Below are positions 57 through 8,089 of a DNA stretch of 11,244 nucleotides, one piece after another (position 1 is the stretch's first letter; each line of letters opens with the position of its first letter). The position numbers and the translations under genes were made by a program. The stretch comes from a virus, in UHGV virus genome UHGV-0101776. One strand, given 5' to 3'. The notes under the pieces were generated by a model that saw only the letters and a list, made by a program, of their open reading frames with translations, had not been told where the DNA came from and did no database searches.

Positions 57-96
57 AAAAAGGCCTGCGATTACCAGCAGGCCTTTATCTTTTTTT
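57..96. terminator. Bidirectional rho-independent terminator at the 3' end of the HNH gene
   Basis: 8-bp stem aggcctgc/gcaggcct (61-84) with an 8-nt loop. It is flanked by an A-run (57-60, a T-run on the minus strand) and by ttatcttttttt (85-96) on the plus strand. The hairpin sits immediately after the minus-strand stop at 85-87. Confidence 0.55.
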
Positions 97-696
97 AACA
101 CGCTTTCGAGTCCTTTTAGATTTTTCCTTAAGATATTCCGCAAGTTTATCCTCATCATTATTAAATTGAGATAAAAGCTCATGCTCGCAATTAAGTGCTT
201 TACTCGCATAAGTTCCATATAGTTTCTTTCTTGCTAGTGCTGCTATGAATGCTGCATCTTCTTTGCTATCGAAATACCCTAACGATATTGTCTTATTTTT
301 ATAACCAACATAAGACTTCCACCTGCCAGTTGTCTTATCCCAAGACACTCCAATCGCACCGGATGTGTTTAACCTATTCCCTACAATGTTTCTTGCATTC
401 TGCTCCTCTGTTGCCAGTCTTAGATTTGAAATCCTATTGTCAAGTCTGTTCCCATTTACATGATCAATAAACTTAGGAGGCCATTTTTTGTATACATAGA
501 ACCAAGCAAGTCTATGCGCATAATACAAAACATTATTTATGCTAATGCATATATAACCACCACTAACACCTCCAGCAATACTACCTTTTACTCTTACTAC
601 TGAATTTGTTTTTAGCCATTTAAATATTCCTGTTTCTGAGTCATATGATAATGTTGACAGAAGCTCATCGTGATCAATTAGTTTTTTTATTCGCAT
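85..696 (-). CDS. HNH homing endonuclease with AP2-type DNA-binding domain
   Basis: 203-aa ORF. HNH motif IDHVNGNRLDNRISNLRLATEEQNARN, followed by an AP2-like segment GVSWDKTTGRWKSYVGYKNKTISLGYFDSKEDAAFIAALARKKLYG. Visibly AT-rich compared with the adjacent helicase gene. No obvious SD before the ATG at 696. Confidence 0.8.
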   Translation of the reverse strand: MRIKKLIDHDELLSTLSYDSETGIFKWLKTNSVVRVKGSIAGGVSGGYICISINNVLYYAHRLAWFYVYKKWPPKFIDHVNGNRLDNRISNLRLATEEQNARNIVGNRLNTSGAIGVSWDKTTGRWKSYVGYKNKTISLGYFDSKEDAAFIAALARKKLYGTYASKALNCEHELLSQFNNDEDKLAEYLKEKSKRTRKRVKKR

Positions 697-778
697 AAAG
701 AATATACTTAATAATATATACAGTAAGAACCATTAGTAACGATAACCCTGCTATCAGCTCAGTGATGTAGATGGTCAT
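674..778 (-). CDS. Small hydrophobic peptide (34 aa), possibly translationally coupled to the helicase
   Basis: The ATG overlaps the helicase TGA stop (TGATG) and is preceded by a strong SD, AAAGGAGG, 7 nt upstream. Product MTIYITELIAGLSLLMVLTVYIIKYILYANKKTN has a single predicted TM helix. Overlaps the HNH start by 23 nt. Below the ORF-track size cutoff. Confidence 0.3.
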   Translation of the reverse strand: MTIYITELIAGLSLLMVLTVYIIKYILYANKKTN

Positions 779-2214
779 CAGAATCCTCCTTTCTTCTTGG
801 ATTGCGGTTCCTCGCGTTCACGGCGGCGCATTTCAGCGGACTGTTGGTCTGTGTCATAAATAGCGCCATTTGCCTGAATGCAATACACCGTGCCGGTATT
901 GCCATGACGATTGAGACGAAGGATTAGTTCGGTTTCACCAGGTGGAACACTGTCATCAAAAGCACCTTCACGATGGATCCCCACCCAATAATCGCAATCC
1001 TGTTCAATCTGCCCTGTATCTCGTGAGTCACTTGGTAATGGGCGTTTATTGGTTCTGCTTTCCAGTGCGCGGTTAAGCTGCGTCAGAAGCACAACAACGC
1101 AATCAAGCTCTTTGGCAAGGTTCTTCAGTCCTTTGGTGATCATGCCGTAAGCAAGGTCGTTGCGATCGGCCTTCTCAGCAGTCATTAGTGTCAGGTAATC
1201 GACCAGAATCATGCCAACACATCCTTTTTCTCGCTTGATTCGACGACTTTCGCTGACGATTTGAGCCAGAGATAATCCCGGCGTGTCGTCGATGTAAAGC
1301 AGGTCGATTTCACTCAAGCGATTGGCTGTTTCGATCGCCCTGTTGAAGTCACCATCGTAATCACCCTGATAGCCGTCATCAGCGTCATTTGTCGCCGGAA
1401 GGTAAAAAATATTCGGGTTAACACCTGACTTCTGTCCTACCAGTTTTTCCAGTATCTGGTCACCGGGCATTTCAAGGCTGAACATCAGAGCGGGCTTTTT
1501 CTCATGCACTGCGCAGTTGATTGCCATCTGGCTGTATAGCGTCGTTTTCCCCATCTTAGGGCGAGCGCCAATGACAAACAGAGAGCCTTTCACCAGACCT
1601 TTCGGTGACAGCATCCTGTCCAGCGATGGGATCCCTGTGCTCATTCCTCGTTGTTCGCCTGACGGGTCAAATCGCTTCTCAAGGTCGCTAACCCAGTCTT
1701 CCATGACCTCACCAAATGAGCGAAGGCCGCGACGCGATCCGGTTTTTGCATGGTCTGTCAGTTGCGTAAAAATCGCCTGAATAGCTTCGTACTTCTGCGT
1801 CGCAGTCATTCCGTTGCGGGAATAGAGCAATTCCGTCGCTTCAGTCATGCGGTTGATGGCGTAGCGTTCCATTGCGGTTTCACGAACCTGCATTGCATAG
1901 GCAACGATGTTTGCTGCGCTTGGCGTGTTCTTTGCGATCTCAGCGATATAAGCAAAACCGCCAACAGACGCCGTTAACGATTTACGCTCCAGTTCATCGA
2001 AAAGCGTCAGGCCATCTACTGGCTTTTGCTCCCGGTGCATTCTGGTTATTTCTTCGAAAAGGATTTTGTGTGGTCGGCTGTAAAATGAATCAGGCTTCAG
2101 CATCGCCAGAACTTTCTGGACGCGCTCACTGCTGTCATCATCCAGAAGCAATCCACCAATCACCGCCTGCTCTGCCTCGATGCTATGGGGCGGCGCATAA
2201 AAATTATCGGTCAT
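778..2214 (-). CDS. DnaB-family replicative DNA helicase (phage P22 gene 12-type)
   Basis: Walker A GARPKMGKTTL, Walker B-like ILVDYLTLM and the DnaB-like LLTQLNR motif. The ATG at 2214 overlaps the upstream initiator stop (ATGACCGATAA) with GAGG upstream. The ORF track's longer form starts at a GTG at 2229; the ATG is preferred. Confidence 0.88.
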   Translation of the reverse strand: MTDNFYAPPHSIEAEQAVIGGLLLDDDSSERVQKVLAMLKPDSFYSRPHKILFEEITRMHREQKPVDGLTLFDELERKSLTASVGGFAYIAEIAKNTPSAANIVAYAMQVRETAMERYAINRMTEATELLYSRNGMTATQKYEAIQAIFTQLTDHAKTGSRRGLRSFGEVMEDWVSDLEKRFDPSGEQRGMSTGIPSLDRMLSPKGLVKGSLFVIGARPKMGKTTLYSQMAINCAVHEKKPALMFSLEMPGDQILEKLVGQKSGVNPNIFYLPATNDADDGYQGDYDGDFNRAIETANRLSEIDLLYIDDTPGLSLAQIVSESRRIKREKGCVGMILVDYLTLMTAEKADRNDLAYGMITKGLKNLAKELDCVVVLLTQLNRALESRTNKRPLPSDSRDTGQIEQDCDYWVGIHREGAFDDSVPPGETELILRLNRHGNTGTVYCIQANGAIYDTDQQSAEMRRREREEPQSKKKGGF

Positions 2215-3094
2215 CGTGTTCACCCTCACGAACTTTCAGGTAGGTATTATCGTTAAGCAGGAAATCAAATCCCTTTTTGTGCCAGACGGTTCCGCGTTGA
2301 TGGTTTGGGCGCTCTTCGAACATCCATCGGCAATTTTCGCCAACGTAGCTCAAATAATTTCTCCAGTCCTGCATCGTGAACCCATGCCCGTCAAGTTGGC
2401 GTGTTATTACTCCGGCTTTGCGCCAGAACGTTCGGATCTGGTTTTTACGCTTGTCATTCAGTGCGCGGATTCTTGGCGCTTCAGGAAGGATTTCGTGGTA
2501 AGCATCGACAACATCCTGACAGCTGACGGAAGGTTTTTTCTTGTCAGACTTTTTGTCTGCTGTGGCACTCTCTAATACGTCAGTATTAGAGATATTATTT
2601 ATATTATTGTTTATGGACAACCGTTGGACAACCGTTGGACAATCTCCGCTGAGAGCCGCGCCATTACTGGTGTTTGCGTTGGACAACCGTTGGACAACCG
2701 TTGGACAATTTTTTGCCTGAAAATCGTCATATTTAACGATTGTAAACAGGCTAAATTTCTTCCCCATCGAGCAAATATTAAGCATCCCTTTCGACTCAAA
2801 AGTCCGTAATAAGCTCCGAACTTTGTTGTCGGGGATGAATGTTTCTCTGACCAGCGACGGGCGTCCAGTTATCATCTGACCGCGATCAACAGTTATCGGC
2901 CCGATATCCGTATTGACGACAGTAGATTCGTGATTAGCCTTGAGGATTAAGTGAAGCCAAAGATGTACTGCCTGAGAGTCCTTATAGAGCCTGCTGTCCA
3001 TAAACTGGCGGTGTATAGAGACATACCCCATACTGGATGCCTCCTGATGTTGTACAGGGTTATGCCTGTAATCAGCTAACTTAACGACGCCCAT
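2204..3094 (-). CDS. Phage replication initiator (lambda O-like role), origin embedded in the gene
   Basis: 296-aa ORF directly upstream of, and overlapping, the helicase gene. Strong SD AGGAG 6 nt before the ATG at 3094. Iteron repeats lie inside the central part of the gene (translated as the repeated CPTVVQRLS), the same arrangement as lambda O/ori. Conserved-looking C-terminal domain (TFWRKAG...GTVWHKKGFDFLLNDNTYLKV). Confidence 0.75.
   Translation of the reverse strand: MGVVKLADYRHNPVQHQEASSMGYVSIHRQFMDSRLYKDSQAVHLWLHLILKANHESTVVNTDIGPITVDRGQMITGRPSLVRETFIPDNKVRSLLRTFESKGMLNICSMGKKFSLFTIVKYDDFQAKNCPTVVQRLSNANTSNGAALSGDCPTVVQRLSINNNINNISNTDVLESATADKKSDKKKPSVSCQDVVDAYHEILPEAPRIRALNDKRKNQIRTFWRKAGVITRQLDGHGFTMQDWRNYLSYVGENCRWMFEERPNHQRGTVWHKKGFDFLLNDNTYLKVREGEHDDR
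2585..2708. repeat. Replication-origin iterons plus adjacent AT-rich region
   Basis: Six copies of GGACAA at 11-bp spacing (unit GGACAACCGTT) in two clusters of three, 2615-2642 and 2681-2708. The clusters are 66 bp apart (6 x 11), so all copies are in helical phase. An AT-rich stretch at 2585-2614 flanks them on the side downstream in gene orientation. Confidence 0.75.
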
Positions 3095-3242
3095 GCTTCA
3101 CTCCTGCTTTGGCTAGTCTGTAAACACCAACAAGGCGCTCTGCGAACGCCCTGTTATTTGCTGCGGCTACCACTAATCCCTCAGGTGAATCAGGGTGTCG
3201 AATCTCTTCTTTTTCCTGGTATTTCTTACGACGTTTTGTCAT
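3078..3242 (-). CDS. Small basic hypothetical protein (54 aa) between cII and the initiator gene
   Basis: ATG at 3242 preceded by AGGAG (spacing 6). Product MTKRRKKYQEKEEIRHPDSPEGLVVAAANNRAFAERLVGVYRLAKAGVKHGRR. The stop overlaps the initiator start by 17 nt. Not in the ORF track (under 60 aa). Confidence 0.4.
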
Positions 3243-4761: not shown

Positions 4762-4884
4762 CTTCAAGTACGCGACAAGCCCCGTCCTTCAGGGCGTGGA
4801 GGATGTCAAAATAACTTTAAATAACACACCACCAACATTTAACACATTGAATTAAAAAACCTACAATATTTGATGAGAGGCGTT

Positions 4885-5205
4885 ATGGAACCGGTCAAAA
4901 TTAAACCATCTGTGGATTATATTGAAACCTATGCGGACTTCGCTAGTTTTGCTCCACTACCGGGAGCGGAAAAAAATCTCATTTGTATACATTTTATCGC
5001 AAACAAGTCAATACCTGCGGTACTATCCCAAAATGATATACCAGATCAACCAGGTAGAGCGAATATGCAGATAGGCTCTGTAAATGAACTCAATCAGCAA
5101 TGCACTGTGATAATGCCAATGGCACAACTAAAGGCTCTTCAAGAGAATATAGTTCTTCTTTTCGAACAATTAGAGGCACAAAACTCTAATGGAGCGAAGT
5201 CGTAA
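4885..5205 (+). CDS. Hypothetical protein A of a two-gene moron in the rexA/rexB-equivalent slot
   Basis: ORF-track ORF 4870..5205. Preferred start is the ATG at 4885, with GAGG 5 nt upstream (alternative ATG at 4873). 107 aa with no recognisable motif. AT-rich. The stop overlaps the next start (TAATG). Confidence 0.5.
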   Translation: MEPVKIKPSVDYIETYADFASFAPLPGAEKNLICIHFIANKSIPAVLSQNDIPDQPGRANMQIGSVNELNQQCTVIMPMAQLKALQENIVLLFEQLEAQNSNGAKS

Positions 5206-5888
5206 TGCAACAACCGGAAGAAGTAGGTGATTTAACTATTACTTACAAAACATCAAGTATTGTTAAACCACTGCAAGTTTCCCTGAATAACGTTAATACT
5301 CGCGATTTCATGATGTTCATGGAAACAGCAAAAGGTAATCTGTTTTCTACGCCTATTTCCTCTTATTCACCAAAAAACATGGTGGATGATGCGACCAATT
5401 CCCAGCTAACTGCTACAATCGTAGATAAAGGAGGGGTTGCCGATTGTAAAGGACAATCTAATGTTATCCCACCGTACGAGGAAACTCCTATACAGGGAAC
5501 CGCAATGTCCGATTTGAGCAGAAACGAAATACAGGCACTTCTGAAGGCAAATAAAGCTGAAGTGGATGCAGTGGCCTCAAAAATGCAGGCTGATATGGCC
5601 AAATGGCGTGAACTAATGGCTTCAGATATAAAGGAGATGAAGCATTTAGTTGTTACTCAGCACGAACAAATCAACAGTCGTCTGGACATACAATCGAGTA
5701 GAATTGAGAGTGCCCTTGACTCCCAATCAAAAAAGATCGATGCAGCTCTTTCTGTTCAAGAGGCAAAGTTAGAAGGTAAGCTTAGTGATGTTAAGCTTGA
5801 TATAATCAAATGGGCCCTTGGCTTGCCAGCATTAGCATTTACTGTATATAAAATCTACGGATTGCTCTCTGGAGTCTCAACCCCCTAA
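5205..5888 (+). CDS. Hypothetical membrane-anchored coiled-coil protein B of the two-gene moron
   Basis: 227 aa. N-terminal globular part, a central heptad-like coiled-coil region (about residues 110-200) and a C-terminal hydrophobic helix IIKWALGLPALAFTVYKIYGLLSGV. Start overlaps the stop of protein A. Followed by an intrinsic terminator. Confidence 0.6.
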   Translation: MQQPEEVGDLTITYKTSSIVKPLQVSLNNVNTRDFMMFMETAKGNLFSTPISSYSPKNMVDDATNSQLTATIVDKGGVADCKGQSNVIPPYEETPIQGTAMSDLSRNEIQALLKANKAEVDAVASKMQADMAKWRELMASDIKEMKHLVVTQHEQINSRLDIQSSRIESALDSQSKKIDAALSVQEAKLEGKLSDVKLDIIKWALGLPALAFTVYKIYGLLSGVSTP

Positions 5889-7782: not shown

Positions 7783-7842
7783 ATGCATACCAATAACGCT
7801 TCATTCGAGGCGTTTTCGTTATGTATAAATAAGGAGCACACC

Positions 7843-7983
7843 ATGCAATATGCCATTGCAGGGTGGCCTGTTGCTGGCTGCCCTTCCGAATCTTTACTTG
7901 AACGAATCACACGTAAATTACGTGATGGATGGAAACGCCTTATCGACATACTTAATCAGCCAGGAGTTCCCAAAAATGGATAA
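7843..7983 (+). CDS. cIII: CIII (inhibitor of FtsH-mediated CII degradation)
   Basis: 46 aa, MQYAIAGWPVAGCPSESLLERITRKLRDGWKRLIDILNQPGVPKNG. Essentially identical to my recollection of lambda CIII over this length, but lacking the last 8 residues. AAGGAG SD 6 nt upstream. The ORF-track ORF 7783..7983 includes a spurious N-terminal extension. Confidence 0.85.
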   Translation: MQYAIAGWPVAGCPSESLLERITRKLRDGWKRLIDILNQPGVPKNG

Positions 7984-8089
7984 AACACTTATGGCTATCC
8001 AGACTAAATTCACTATCGCCACTTTTATTGGCGATGAAAAGATGTTTCGTGAAGCCGTAGAAGCCTACAGAAAATGGAGGTCAAAATGA
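7976..8089 (+). CDS. Small protein overlapping the cIII 3' end, Kil-like by position
   Basis: 37 aa, MDKTLMAIQTKFTIATFIGDEKMFREAVEAYRKWRSK. The start overlaps the cIII stop, as lambda kil does. The sequence resembles my uncertain recollection of the lambda Kil N-terminus. Confidence 0.4.
   Translation: MDKTLMAIQTKFTIATFIGDEKMFREAVEAYRKWRSK

What the first reader, a model, noticed from the sequence alone, without database searches (positions are those of the whole stretch)
2585..2708. Origin-type iteron array inside the initiator gene: six in-phase GGACAA repeats in two triplets
The unit GGACAACCGTT occurs three times at 2615-2642 and three times at 2681-2708. The clusters are exactly 66 bp apart, so all six GGACAA cores share an 11-bp phase (one DNA face), and an AT-rich stretch flanks them. 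This mirrors lambda ori inside the O gene, but with a different repeat unit and a two-cluster layout. The repeats are also translated as a repeated CPTVVQRLS segment.
Basis: partly seen in the sequence, partly recalled or inferred. Interest (0 to 1): 0.5.

Follow-up and report, generated by a model that had tools for sequence, protein, structure and literature searches.

The report
Known phage replication origin inside initiator gene
The six in-phase 11-bp repeats are real and are almost certainly the replication origin of this lambda-like prophage, lying inside its own initiator gene, but databases and the literature already list this element as a putative origin, so the finding is correct and ordinary.

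Summary
Two identical 30-mers (2614-2643 and 2680-2709) lie 66 bp apart. Each carries three TGTCCAACGG-type units (gene strand) at 11-bp spacing. They sit in the linker-coding part of a 296-aa O-like initiator gene (2204-3094, minus strand), next to a 21-bp AT-rich stretch (5% GC) and a perfect 10-bp-arm palindrome.

The origin reading is well supported. Fourteen homologues, down to 39% protein identity, keep the spacing 11,11,44,11,11, the AT-rich stretch and the palindrome. The unit sequence changes together with the initiator's N-terminal winged-helix domain. Synonymous sites are frozen inside the units. The three units of a cluster are read in three different frames.

It is not new. The Sf6 GenBank record annotates exactly this 96-bp stretch (94/96 identical) as a putative origin. 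HK620 and phage L carry equivalent annotations, and the phage L paper describes six 11-bp repeats.

One refinement: the DNA-binding domain shows no sequence similarity to lambda O. It is homologous to the Bacillus phage SPP1 origin-binding protein gp38 (G38P), whose proven origin oriL also has 11-bp direct repeats plus an AT-rich region inside its own gene. No experiment on this iteron type was found.

The parts
2204..3094 (-). O-like replication initiator gene (296 aa) that contains the origin
   Evidence: ORF and translation. PHROG 345 'replication initiation O-like', E 6e-85. 99% identical to Sf6 gene 43 and to the O genes of HK75, HK106 and mEp234.
2714..3037 (-). Coding region of the N-terminal winged-helix DNA-binding domain (aa 20-127), the presumed iteron reader
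   Evidence: AlphaFold model with pLDDT 88 and pTM 0.80, showing helix-turn-helix plus a beta-hairpin wing. Weak fold matches (E 6e-3 or worse), mostly to winged-helix DNA binders but mixed with ribosomal proteins. Homologous to the SPP1 gp38 N-terminus: BLASTP 8e-13 and hhalign probability 96.7%. Its sequence changes together with the iteron type.
2680..2709 (-). Iteron cluster 1 (first in gene direction). Gene-strand units are TGTCCAACGGT, TGTCCAACGGT and TGTCCAACGca (the third runs on to 2675). Encodes CPTVVQRLS, aa 130-138.
   Evidence: Lies inside the rep_origin feature of Sf6.
2644..2679 (-). Spacer between the clusters. Its sequence varies among homologues but its length is fixed: 33 nt from the end of unit 3 to the start of unit 4.
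   Evidence: The 44-nt start-to-start gap is kept in 14 of 14 homologues while the spacer sequence diverges.
2614..2643 (-). Iteron cluster 2. Gene-strand units are TGTCCAACGGT, TGTCCAACGGT and TGTCCAtaaac. Encodes CPTVVQRLS, aa 152-160.
2593..2613 (-). AT-rich stretch (gene strand TAAACAATAATATAAATAATA, 5% GC), the presumed DNA-unwinding element
   Evidence: An AT-rich stretch of 12-24 nt is present at this position in all 14 homologues. Lambda and SPP1 have one at the equivalent place.
2569..2592 (.). Perfect palindrome TCTCTAATAC-nnnn-GTATTAGAGA (10-bp arms, 4-nt centre). Its centre lies 33 nt from the last iteron core.
   Evidence: In the 11 distinct homologue sequences aligned, 8 of 10 arm pairs show changes on both sides and none shows a one-sided change; 95.5% of cells pair, against 29-46% in shifted controls. 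Lambda ori has an equivalent palindrome with 12-bp arms and a 4-nt centre. It is terminator-like on the + strand.
2207..2533 (-). Coding region of the C-terminal domain (aa 188-296), the presumed contact for the phage helicase
   Evidence: AlphaFold pLDDT 74-91 for aa 190-290. This C-terminal type occurs with a DnaB-type helicase gene downstream. Homologues with a lambda-O-type C-terminus have a lambda-P loader instead.
778..2214 (-). Phage DnaB-family replicative helicase gene, overlapping the end of the initiator gene; there is no separate loader gene
   Evidence: TIGR03600 phage_DnaB, E 1e-175. Pfam DnaB and DnaB_C. Start position taken from Sf6 gene 44.

Best explanation
The array is the replication origin of a lambdoid (Sf6/HK75/phage L-type) replication module. 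It is embedded in the part of the initiator gene that codes for a disordered linker.

Proposed mechanism, all steps inferred:
1. The initiator's N-terminal winged-helix domain binds the six 11-bp direct repeats (TGTCCAACGGn on the gene strand), which lie in two triplets 66 bp apart.
2. Roughly in-phase, head-to-tail binding builds a nucleoprotein complex that distorts the DNA and melts the adjacent AT-rich stretch of about 21 bp.
3. The C-terminal domain brings in the phage's own DnaB-type helicase, encoded immediately downstream, without a lambda-P-type loader.
4. The conserved palindrome beyond the AT-rich stretch belongs to the same module. Its role is unknown.

Shown here by computation: the anatomy, nucleotide-level selection on the units, change of the unit sequence together with the N-terminal domain, fixed spacing, the domain architecture, and the pairing of C-terminal type with partner gene. 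Inferred only: binding, melting and helicase recruitment.
For: 1. Prior annotation. The Sf6 rep_origin maps to window 2614-2709 with 94/96 identity. HK620 and phage L have equivalent features. The phage L paper reports six 11-bp repeats, TGTCCAACGGA, as the 'likely origin' (PMC8022706).

2. Conserved layout. Fourteen homologues with 39-100% protein identity all show 11,11,44,11,11 spacing, then an AT-rich stretch, then a palindrome.

3. Unit type tracks the N-terminal domain. There are five unit types: TGTCCAAC, AATCCAA, rGCCAAC, TTACCAGC and GTGCCAAC. Each goes with its own N-terminal domain sequence, and the differences concentrate at the start of the predicted recognition helix, aa 85-93. 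HK022 has a different N-terminus and different iterons, yet its palindrome and downstream coding sequence are identical to the window's in the stretch shown, and its C-terminal domain protein is identical.

4. Selection acts on the DNA. The three units of a cluster are read in three frames (C-P-T-V / V-Q-R / L-S). Among codons whose amino acid is invariant, 11 of 13 are identical inside the units against 16 of 78 outside (Fisher p = 1.4e-5).

5. Homology to a proven system. The N-terminal domain is homologous to SPP1 gp38. SPP1 oriL lies in gene 38 and has 11-bp direct repeats plus an AT-rich region. It is bound by gp38 and supports replication in vitro (PMC6316719).

6. Lambda ori has the same iterons, AT-rich stretch and palindrome.

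7. The iteron-coded residues fall in a stretch of low-confidence, probably disordered, structure (pLDDT below 30).
Against: - I found no experiment on this iteron type: no binding assay, origin mapping or ori-plasmid test. All existing annotations say 'putative' or 'likely'.
- Natural variants carry one, two or three clusters, and the one-cluster form occurs in prophages that look complete. The two-triplet geometry therefore may not be strictly required.
- At 10.5 bp per turn the two clusters are not on the same face of the helix.
- The 14 homologues are not independent lineages.
Confidence: 0.85

Rival explanations
1. The repeats are initiator-binding sites, but their main role is not origin firing. 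They might serve for autoregulation, titration of the initiator, handcuffing, or as a fork barrier that triggers the switch to rolling-circle replication, as proposed for gp38 bound at SPP1 oriR. In that case the true start site would lie elsewhere.
For: In SPP1 the same initiator binds a second repeat region, oriR, which is proposed to stall forks (PMC6316719). The number of clusters varies from one to three in nature, which would be easier to tolerate for a modulatory site.
Against: An AT-rich stretch adjoins the repeats in 14 of 14 homologues, matching proven origins in lambda and SPP1 oriL. No second copy of the units exists in the 11.2-kb window. Genetic data cited for phage L place origin specificity within the replication region (PMC8022706).
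Confidence: 0.07
2. The repeat is only a protein-level tandem duplication (a 22-aa repeat in a low-complexity linker) produced by slippage, with no function as DNA.
For: The 66-bp module varies in copy number by exact in-frame steps, giving proteins of 274, 296 and 318 aa. The region codes for a stretch predicted to be disordered.
Against: Within a cluster the 11-bp unit is read in three different frames, so the protein has no 11-bp-equivalent repeat. Synonymous sites are frozen inside the units. The 11-bp period and the 66-bp distance persist while the amino-acid sequence of the segment changes completely, for example CPTVVQRLS against NPKEIQGKS against VPADYQQIT.
Confidence: 0.03
3. The units are sites for a different protein, such as host DnaA or another phage regulator, or they are four dyad-symmetric CAACNGTTG sites bound by dimers as in lambda.
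For: Unit junctions in this window form the near-palindrome CAACGGTTG. One DnaA-box-like match with one mismatch lies at 2611-2619.
Against: The unit sequence changes with the phage-encoded N-terminal domain among phages of closely related enterobacterial hosts, which argues against a conserved host factor. DnaA-box matches are not enriched (34 found, 25.6 expected). Natural variants TGTCCAACGGA and TGTCCAACGGG break the dyad but keep the direct repeat.
Confidence: 0.03

Closest known systems
Putative origins annotated in Shigella phage Sf6 (AF547987, rep_origin 28385-28480), coliphage HK620 (AF335538) and Salmonella phage L (MW013503; PMC8022706)
   Same: Sf6 carries the same element: 94/96 identical, with the same coordinates once mapped. 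Phage L has six 11-bp TGTCCAACGGA-type repeats in gene 18. HK620 has the same 96-bp two-cluster layout.
   Different: HK620 and HK022 use a different unit (TTACCAGCArA) with a different N-terminal domain. All of these annotations are predictions, not experiments.
Bacillus phage SPP1 oriL and the replisome organizer gp38 (G38P)
   Same: The N-terminal DNA-binding domains are homologous (BLASTP 8e-13, hhalign 96.7%). The origin lies inside the initiator's own gene, just after the N-domain coding region, and consists of 11-bp direct repeats followed by an AT-rich region. A DnaB-family phage helicase is encoded downstream. Binding and in-vitro replication have been demonstrated for SPP1 (PMC6316719).
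   Different: SPP1 has four or five contiguous repeats rather than 3 + 3. It has a separate helicase loader, gp39, between the initiator and helicase genes. Its C-terminal domain is different (Phg_2220_C in the SPP1-like homologue of phage 279BB001). It also has a second origin, oriR.
Phage lambda ori and the O protein
   Same: The origin lies in the middle of the initiator gene in the pR operon. The layout is the same: repeats, then an AT-rich stretch of about 40 bp, then a palindrome with a 4-nt centre (PMC3349717). The logic of an N-terminal DNA-binding domain and a C-terminal partner-binding domain is shared. Some homologues of the window protein carry a lambda-O-type C-terminus paired with a lambda-P loader.
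   Different: Lambda has four 18-bp iterons with internal dyad symmetry, not six 11-bp direct repeats. There is no detectable sequence similarity between the proteins, and Pfam Phage_rep_O matches lambda O but not this protein. Lambda recruits host DnaB through P, whereas here the phage encodes its own DnaB-type helicase.
Phage P22 gene 18 origin and gene 12 helicase
   Same: The module type is the same: an initiator containing its origin, followed by a DnaB-type helicase and no loader. The genome position is also the same (PMC8022706).
   Different: P22 gene 18 is reported to contain four repeats of about 20 bp of a different sequence, and its protein is only about 25% identical to the phage L homologue (PMC8022706). 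I did not examine P22 here.
Staphylococcal phage replisome organizers (80alpha ORF20 type)
   Same: The N-terminal domain is homologous (tblastn 6e-8). The gene of phage KO45 contains about nine tandem 11-bp repeats (AACATCAAAAC) followed by an AT-rich stretch. The literature expects the origin to lie inside this gene (PMC5499656).
   Different: The repeats are contiguous rather than in two clusters. The C-terminus is DnaD/DnaB_2-like. In 80alpha the partner is a DnaC-like loader (ORF21), and that phage encodes no helicase of its own (PMC5499656).

Membership tests
Sf6/HK620/phage L-type annotated intragenic origin | Sequence identity to an annotated rep_origin feature | tested here: met
   Window 2614-2709 against Sf6 28385-28480: 94/96 identical with the same boundaries.
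Sf6/HK620/phage L-type annotated intragenic origin | Six 11-bp units in two triplets inside the O-like (gene 18-like) gene, followed by a DnaB-type helicase gene | tested here: met
   Matches the description of phage L in PMC8022706.
Lambda-type origin (ori-lambda architecture) | Repeats inside the initiator gene, between the DNA-binding and partner-binding domains | tested here: met
   Units encode aa 130-160. The N-terminal domain model covers aa 18-128 and the confident C-terminal domain covers aa 188-290.
Lambda-type origin (ori-lambda architecture) | An AT-rich unwinding stretch and then a palindrome immediately downstream of the repeats | tested here: met
   Window. Lambda.
Lambda-type origin (ori-lambda architecture) | Iterons of about 18 bp with internal dyad symmetry | tested here: not met
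   The units are 11-bp direct repeats. The junction near-dyad CAACGGTTG is broken in natural variants. Lambda's iterons do show the dyads.
Lambda-type origin (ori-lambda architecture) | Initiator belongs to the lambda O family (Pfam PF04492, Phage_rep_O) | tested here: not met
   No Pfam hit for the window protein, while lambda O scores 5.7e-36. BLASTP and hhalign find no similarity.
Lambda-type origin (ori-lambda architecture) | Initiator binds the repeats and the fragment supports replication | not testable with these tools
   Needs EMSA or footprinting and an ori-plasmid assay.
SPP1 gp38 (G38P) / oriL-type origin | N-terminal origin-binding domain homologous to gp38 | tested here: met
   BLASTP 8e-13 over aa 20-127. 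hhalign probability 96.7%, E 3.9e-10.
SPP1 gp38 (G38P) / oriL-type origin | 11-bp direct repeats plus an AT-rich region inside the initiator gene, just after the N-domain coding region | tested here: met
   SPP1. Window.
SPP1 gp38 (G38P) / oriL-type origin | A separate small helicase loader (gp39) between the initiator and helicase genes | tested here: not met
   The initiator and helicase genes overlap by 11 nt, with no gene between them. SPP1 has gene 39.
SPP1 gp38 (G38P) / oriL-type origin | A second copy of the repeats elsewhere in the genome (oriR) | tested here: inconclusive
   There is no further copy in the 11.2-kb window. The rest of the phage genome is not in the window.

The most novel reading that the evidence does not exclude
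The perfectly co-varying palindrome is an unrecognised functional component shared by lambda-O-type and gp38-type origins. It has 9-11-bp arms, and its centre lies 33 nt (three unit lengths) from the last iteron in 10 of 14 homologues; lambda ori has an equivalent. It could be a helicase-loading or hairpin-extrusion site, or a terminator that shields the origin from antisense transcription. In addition, the natural variants with one, two or three clusters may tune initiation strength.
Probability: 0.25. Interest if true: 0.4.

Novelty: already known. Interest (0 to 1): 0.15.

Why it matters
Little is at stake for discovery. The element is the expected origin of a very common enterobacterial prophage replication module: more than 380 relatives in IMG/VR and 1,606 related proteins. 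It is already annotated as a putative origin.

Its practical value is for annotation. Phage origins of this initiator family can be recognised by a simple rule that holds from SPP1 to lambdoid phages: 11-bp direct repeats immediately after the N-terminal winged-helix coding region, then an AT-rich stretch, then, in the enterobacterial homologues and in lambda, a palindrome.

The five matched pairs of N-terminal domain and iteron type are a ready-made natural data set for studying how winged-helix initiators change DNA specificity.

Tried and rejected
- Dyad reading (four CAACNGTTG sites as in lambda): rejected, because natural variants at unit position 11 (T to A or G) destroy the dyad but keep the direct repeat.
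- Cross-pairing of the two clusters seen in the single-strand DNA fold: a by-product of that same near-dyad, and not conserved.
- DnaA boxes: no enrichment.
- Promoter-like hits on the iterons (TGGACA...GACAAT, 9 of 12): consensus noise from the repeat itself.
- Pfam and NCBIfam give no family for the initiator. A PDB sequence search gives only chance hits.
- A full-text search for the unit sequence returned only unrelated primer matches among the papers listed.
- The search for related loci in viral contigs returned only relatives that are 99-100% identical, which are useless for covariation. Diversity came from genome contigs and tblastn on phage records.
- The first AlphaFold run on a shallow alignment failed for the N-terminal domain. 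A 47-sequence alignment fixed this.
- Searches for isolated phages with one or three clusters: all 12 listed top phage records have two clusters. The list is not exhaustive.

Full report
**Observation**

On the + strand, 2614-2643 and 2680-2709 are identical 30-mers (TGGACAACCGTTGGACAACCGTTGGACAAT), giving unit spacings of 11, 11, 44, 11, 11. The exact 11-mer TGGACAACCGT occurs four times. The GGACAA core occurs six times here and three more times in the rest of the 11.2-kb window. An exact 30-mer duplicate is not a chance event: about 5e-11 are expected. The third unit of each cluster is partial. GC falls to 0.20 at 2580-2619, and a perfect palindrome with 10-bp arms lies at 2569-2592. The strict 'one face' statement holds only at 11.0 bp per turn. 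At 10.5 bp per turn the two clusters are about 103 degrees apart.

**Context**

The array lies in a minus-strand ORF, 2204-3094 (296 aa). This ORF belongs to PHROG 345, 'replication initiation O-like'. It overlaps the start of a phage DnaB-family helicase gene (TIGR03600, E 1e-175).

Other genes place the window in the early region of a lambdoid, P22-like mosaic prophage, drawn in reverse orientation:
- CII, a Cro-like repressor, a CI-type repressor and SieB.
- N, Ral, Kil and Abc2.

Read on the gene strand, the units are TGTCCAACGGT, TGTCCAACGGT, TGTCCAACGca, a 33-nt spacer, then TGTCCAACGGT, TGTCCAACGGT, TGTCCAtaaac. They are followed by TAAACAATAATATAAATAATA and the palindrome.

**Already annotated**

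- The gene is 99.1% identical to Sf6 gene 43. The Sf6 GenBank record carries a rep_origin feature described as 'putative; repeat region reminiscent of the phage lambda origin; similar to phage HK620'. Its coordinates map exactly onto window 2614-2709, with 94/96 identity.
- HK620 has a two-piece rep_origin of the same 96-bp span. Phage L has a 'putative origin of replication' feature.
- I found no report of binding or origin-function experiments for this iteron type.

**Comparative test**

I collected 13 homologous loci with 39-96% protein identity, from genome contigs and phage records.

- *Layout.* All of them, like the window, show six units with spacing 11,11,44,11,11, starting in the same codon phase. 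An AT-rich stretch of 12-24 nt and a perfect 9-11-bp-arm palindrome follow.
- *Spacer.* Its sequence diverges freely but its length never changes. The AT-rich stretch, by contrast, does vary in length.
- *Unit types.* The unit differs by lineage. TGTCCAACGGn occurs in the window, phage L and five others. AATCCAAnGGA occurs in two. rGCCAACGAAA occurs in one. TTACCAGCArA occurs in HK022, and HK620's annotated origin carries it too. rTGCCAACArA occurs in three. A CC dinucleotide at unit positions 4-5 is invariant, and A follows it in all but one unit.
- *Change together with the protein.* Each unit type goes with its own N-terminal domain sequence, and the differences concentrate at aa 85-93. HK022 has a different N-terminus and different iterons, yet its palindrome and downstream coding sequence are identical to the window's in the stretch shown, and its C-terminal domain protein is identical. 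This places a mosaic joint at or near the end of the iteron array.

**Selection acts on the DNA**

Because 11 is not a multiple of 3, the three units of a cluster are read in three frames (C-P-T-V, V-Q-R, L-S). The protein 'repeat' exists only because the whole cluster is duplicated. Among six TGTCCAAC-type sequences, 11 of 13 codons with an invariant amino acid inside the units are identical at the nucleotide level. Outside the units the figure is 16 of 78 (Fisher p = 1.4e-5).

**The palindrome**

In the 11 distinct sequences aligned, 8 of 10 arm pairs show changes on both sides and none shows a one-sided change. Pairing is 95.5%, against 29-46% when the partner columns are shifted. The complete absence of G-T intermediates fits a DNA-level dyad better than an RNA hairpin; this is inference. 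Lambda ori has the equivalent palindrome, with 12-bp arms and a 4-nt centre, directly after its AT-rich region. On the strand antisense to the gene, the palindrome plus its T-rich tail looks like a terminator. Its role is open.

**The protein**

A first AlphaFold run gave a confident C-terminal domain (aa 190-290) and very low confidence for aa 111-180, which include the iteron-coded residues 130-160. With a 47-sequence alignment, the N-terminal domain (aa 18-128) folds with pLDDT 88 and pTM 0.80 as a winged helix. The recognition helix is at about aa 89-101 and the wing at aa 105-119. Fold matches are weak (E 6e-3 or worse). They are mostly generic winged-helix DNA binders (TubR, CodY, MarR and CRP families) plus a plasmid-type initiator, mixed with ribosomal proteins.

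The protein shows no similarity to lambda O by BLASTP, by hhalign or by Pfam Phage_rep_O. Its N-terminal domain is homologous to that of SPP1 gp38: BLASTP 8e-13, and hhalign probability 96.7% with E 4e-10. SPP1 gene 38 contains four or five 11-bp direct repeats (GAAACGACAGA type) followed by an AT-rich run. This is oriL, which gp38 binds and which supports reconstituted theta replication (PMC6316719). A staphylococcal phage homologue carries about nine tandem 11-bp repeats plus an AT-rich stretch at the same place. The literature likewise expects the origin of 80alpha to lie in its gp38 homologue, and calls lambda O 'unrelated' (PMC5499656).

**The C-terminal domain follows the partner gene**

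Homologues with a lambda-O-type C-terminus (L090, L097) are followed by a lambda-P loader (Pfam 5e-65; annotation). Those with the window's C-terminal type are followed by a DnaB-type helicase. One exception is L091, whose C-terminus is divergent yet is still followed by a DnaB-type helicase. The N-domain-plus-iteron unit and the C-domain-plus-partner unit therefore look like separately exchangeable modules.

**Copy-number variants**

Homologous proteins of 274, 296 and 318 aa differ by exact 22-aa steps. At the DNA level these have one, two or three clusters, that is 3, 6 or 9 units. All 80 IMG/VR relatives retrieved have two clusters, though that set was selected with a two-cluster query. 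All 12 listed isolated phages also have two. One-cluster forms occur both in a Shigella prophage carrying an IS4 insertion and in prophages that look complete. One triplet may therefore be enough; this is untested.

**Mechanism**

- Winged-helix N-domains bind the 11-bp units head to tail.
- The assembled complex stresses the adjacent AT-rich stretch.
- The C-terminal domain recruits the phage DnaB-type helicase.

All three steps are inferred from the anatomy and from homology to SPP1 gp38/oriL and analogy to lambda O/ori. I put confidence that this is the origin at about 0.85.

**Rivals**

- *Binding sites with a mainly regulatory or fork-barrier role* (0.07). This is weakened by the AT-rich stretch that always accompanies the repeats.
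- *A purely protein-level repeat* (0.03). The three-frame reading and the frozen synonymous sites argue against it.
- *Sites for host DnaA, or lambda-style dyads* (0.03). The change of unit type with the phage domain, the lack of DnaA-box enrichment and the dyad-breaking variants argue against it.

**Verdict**

This analysis adds the comparative support, the link to SPP1 gp38 rather than lambda O, the co-varying palindrome and the cluster copy-number variants.

Noticed in passing
window 2569-2592; also L084-L097 and lambda L092 1163-1190: A perfect palindrome after the AT-rich stretch is kept in every homologue through strictly two-sided (Watson-Crick) changes. Its centre lies 33 nt from the last iteron in 10 of 14 homologues. 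Lambda ori has an equivalent. On the strand antisense to the gene it looks like a terminator. Its function is unknown.
   Followed up: partly
L098/L099 2501-3457; L100/L101 2501-3325; L105/L106 10001-10825: Natural variants of the initiator gene carry three clusters (318 aa) or one cluster (274 aa), through exact 66-bp gain or loss. One-cluster forms occur in a Shigella prophage carrying an IS4 insertion and also in prophages that look complete.
   Followed up: partly
L103 1527-1646 (Staphylococcus phage KO45); L104 2939-3030 (SPP1 gene 38): Distant Gram-positive homologues of the N-terminal domain also have tandem 11-bp repeats followed by an AT-rich run at the same position in the gene: about nine AACATCAAAAC units in KO45 and four or five GAAACGACAGA units in SPP1 oriL.
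   Followed up: partly
L090 1471-3083 (Dryocola sp.); L097 838-2217 (Erwinia phage 59): These initiators are hybrids. A gp38-like N-terminal domain with 11-bp iterons is fused to a lambda-O-type C-terminus, and a lambda-P helicase loader follows instead of a DnaB-type helicase. This shows modular exchange at the origin.
   Followed up: partly
window 85-696 (-): A 203-aa ORF with HNH_3 and AP2 domains (weak PADLOC 'homing endonuclease' hit) sits just downstream of the helicase gene, where relatives have ninA/tR2. It is probably an inserted homing-endonuclease-like gene.
   Followed up: no
window 4870-5205 (+) and 5205-5888 (+): Two ORFs of unknown function (111 aa and 227 aa; phrog_14825; no PADLOC hit) lie directly downstream of the CI repressor gene. 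Lambdoid prophages often carry exclusion or defence genes at this position.
   Followed up: no
window 7830-7888 (+): Rfam Lambda_thermo (cIII thermoregulator RNA element), 88.5 bits, E 5e-21. It overlaps the 5' end of the Kil-containing ORF 7850-8089.
   Followed up: no
L106 10815-13280: In one E. coli prophage the DnaB-type helicase gene downstream of the one-cluster initiator encodes 821 aa instead of about 478. This could be an intein or an insertion.
   Followed up: no
window 3081-3242 (-): A conserved 53-aa ORF (phrog_1331; homologue of P22 orf48 and HK97 gp53) overlaps the start of the initiator gene by 14 nt. An equivalent small ORF directly upstream of the initiator gene is annotated in the Sf6, HK620, phage L, HK022, Klebsiella-phage and Yersinia-phage records. 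Its function is unknown.
   Followed up: no
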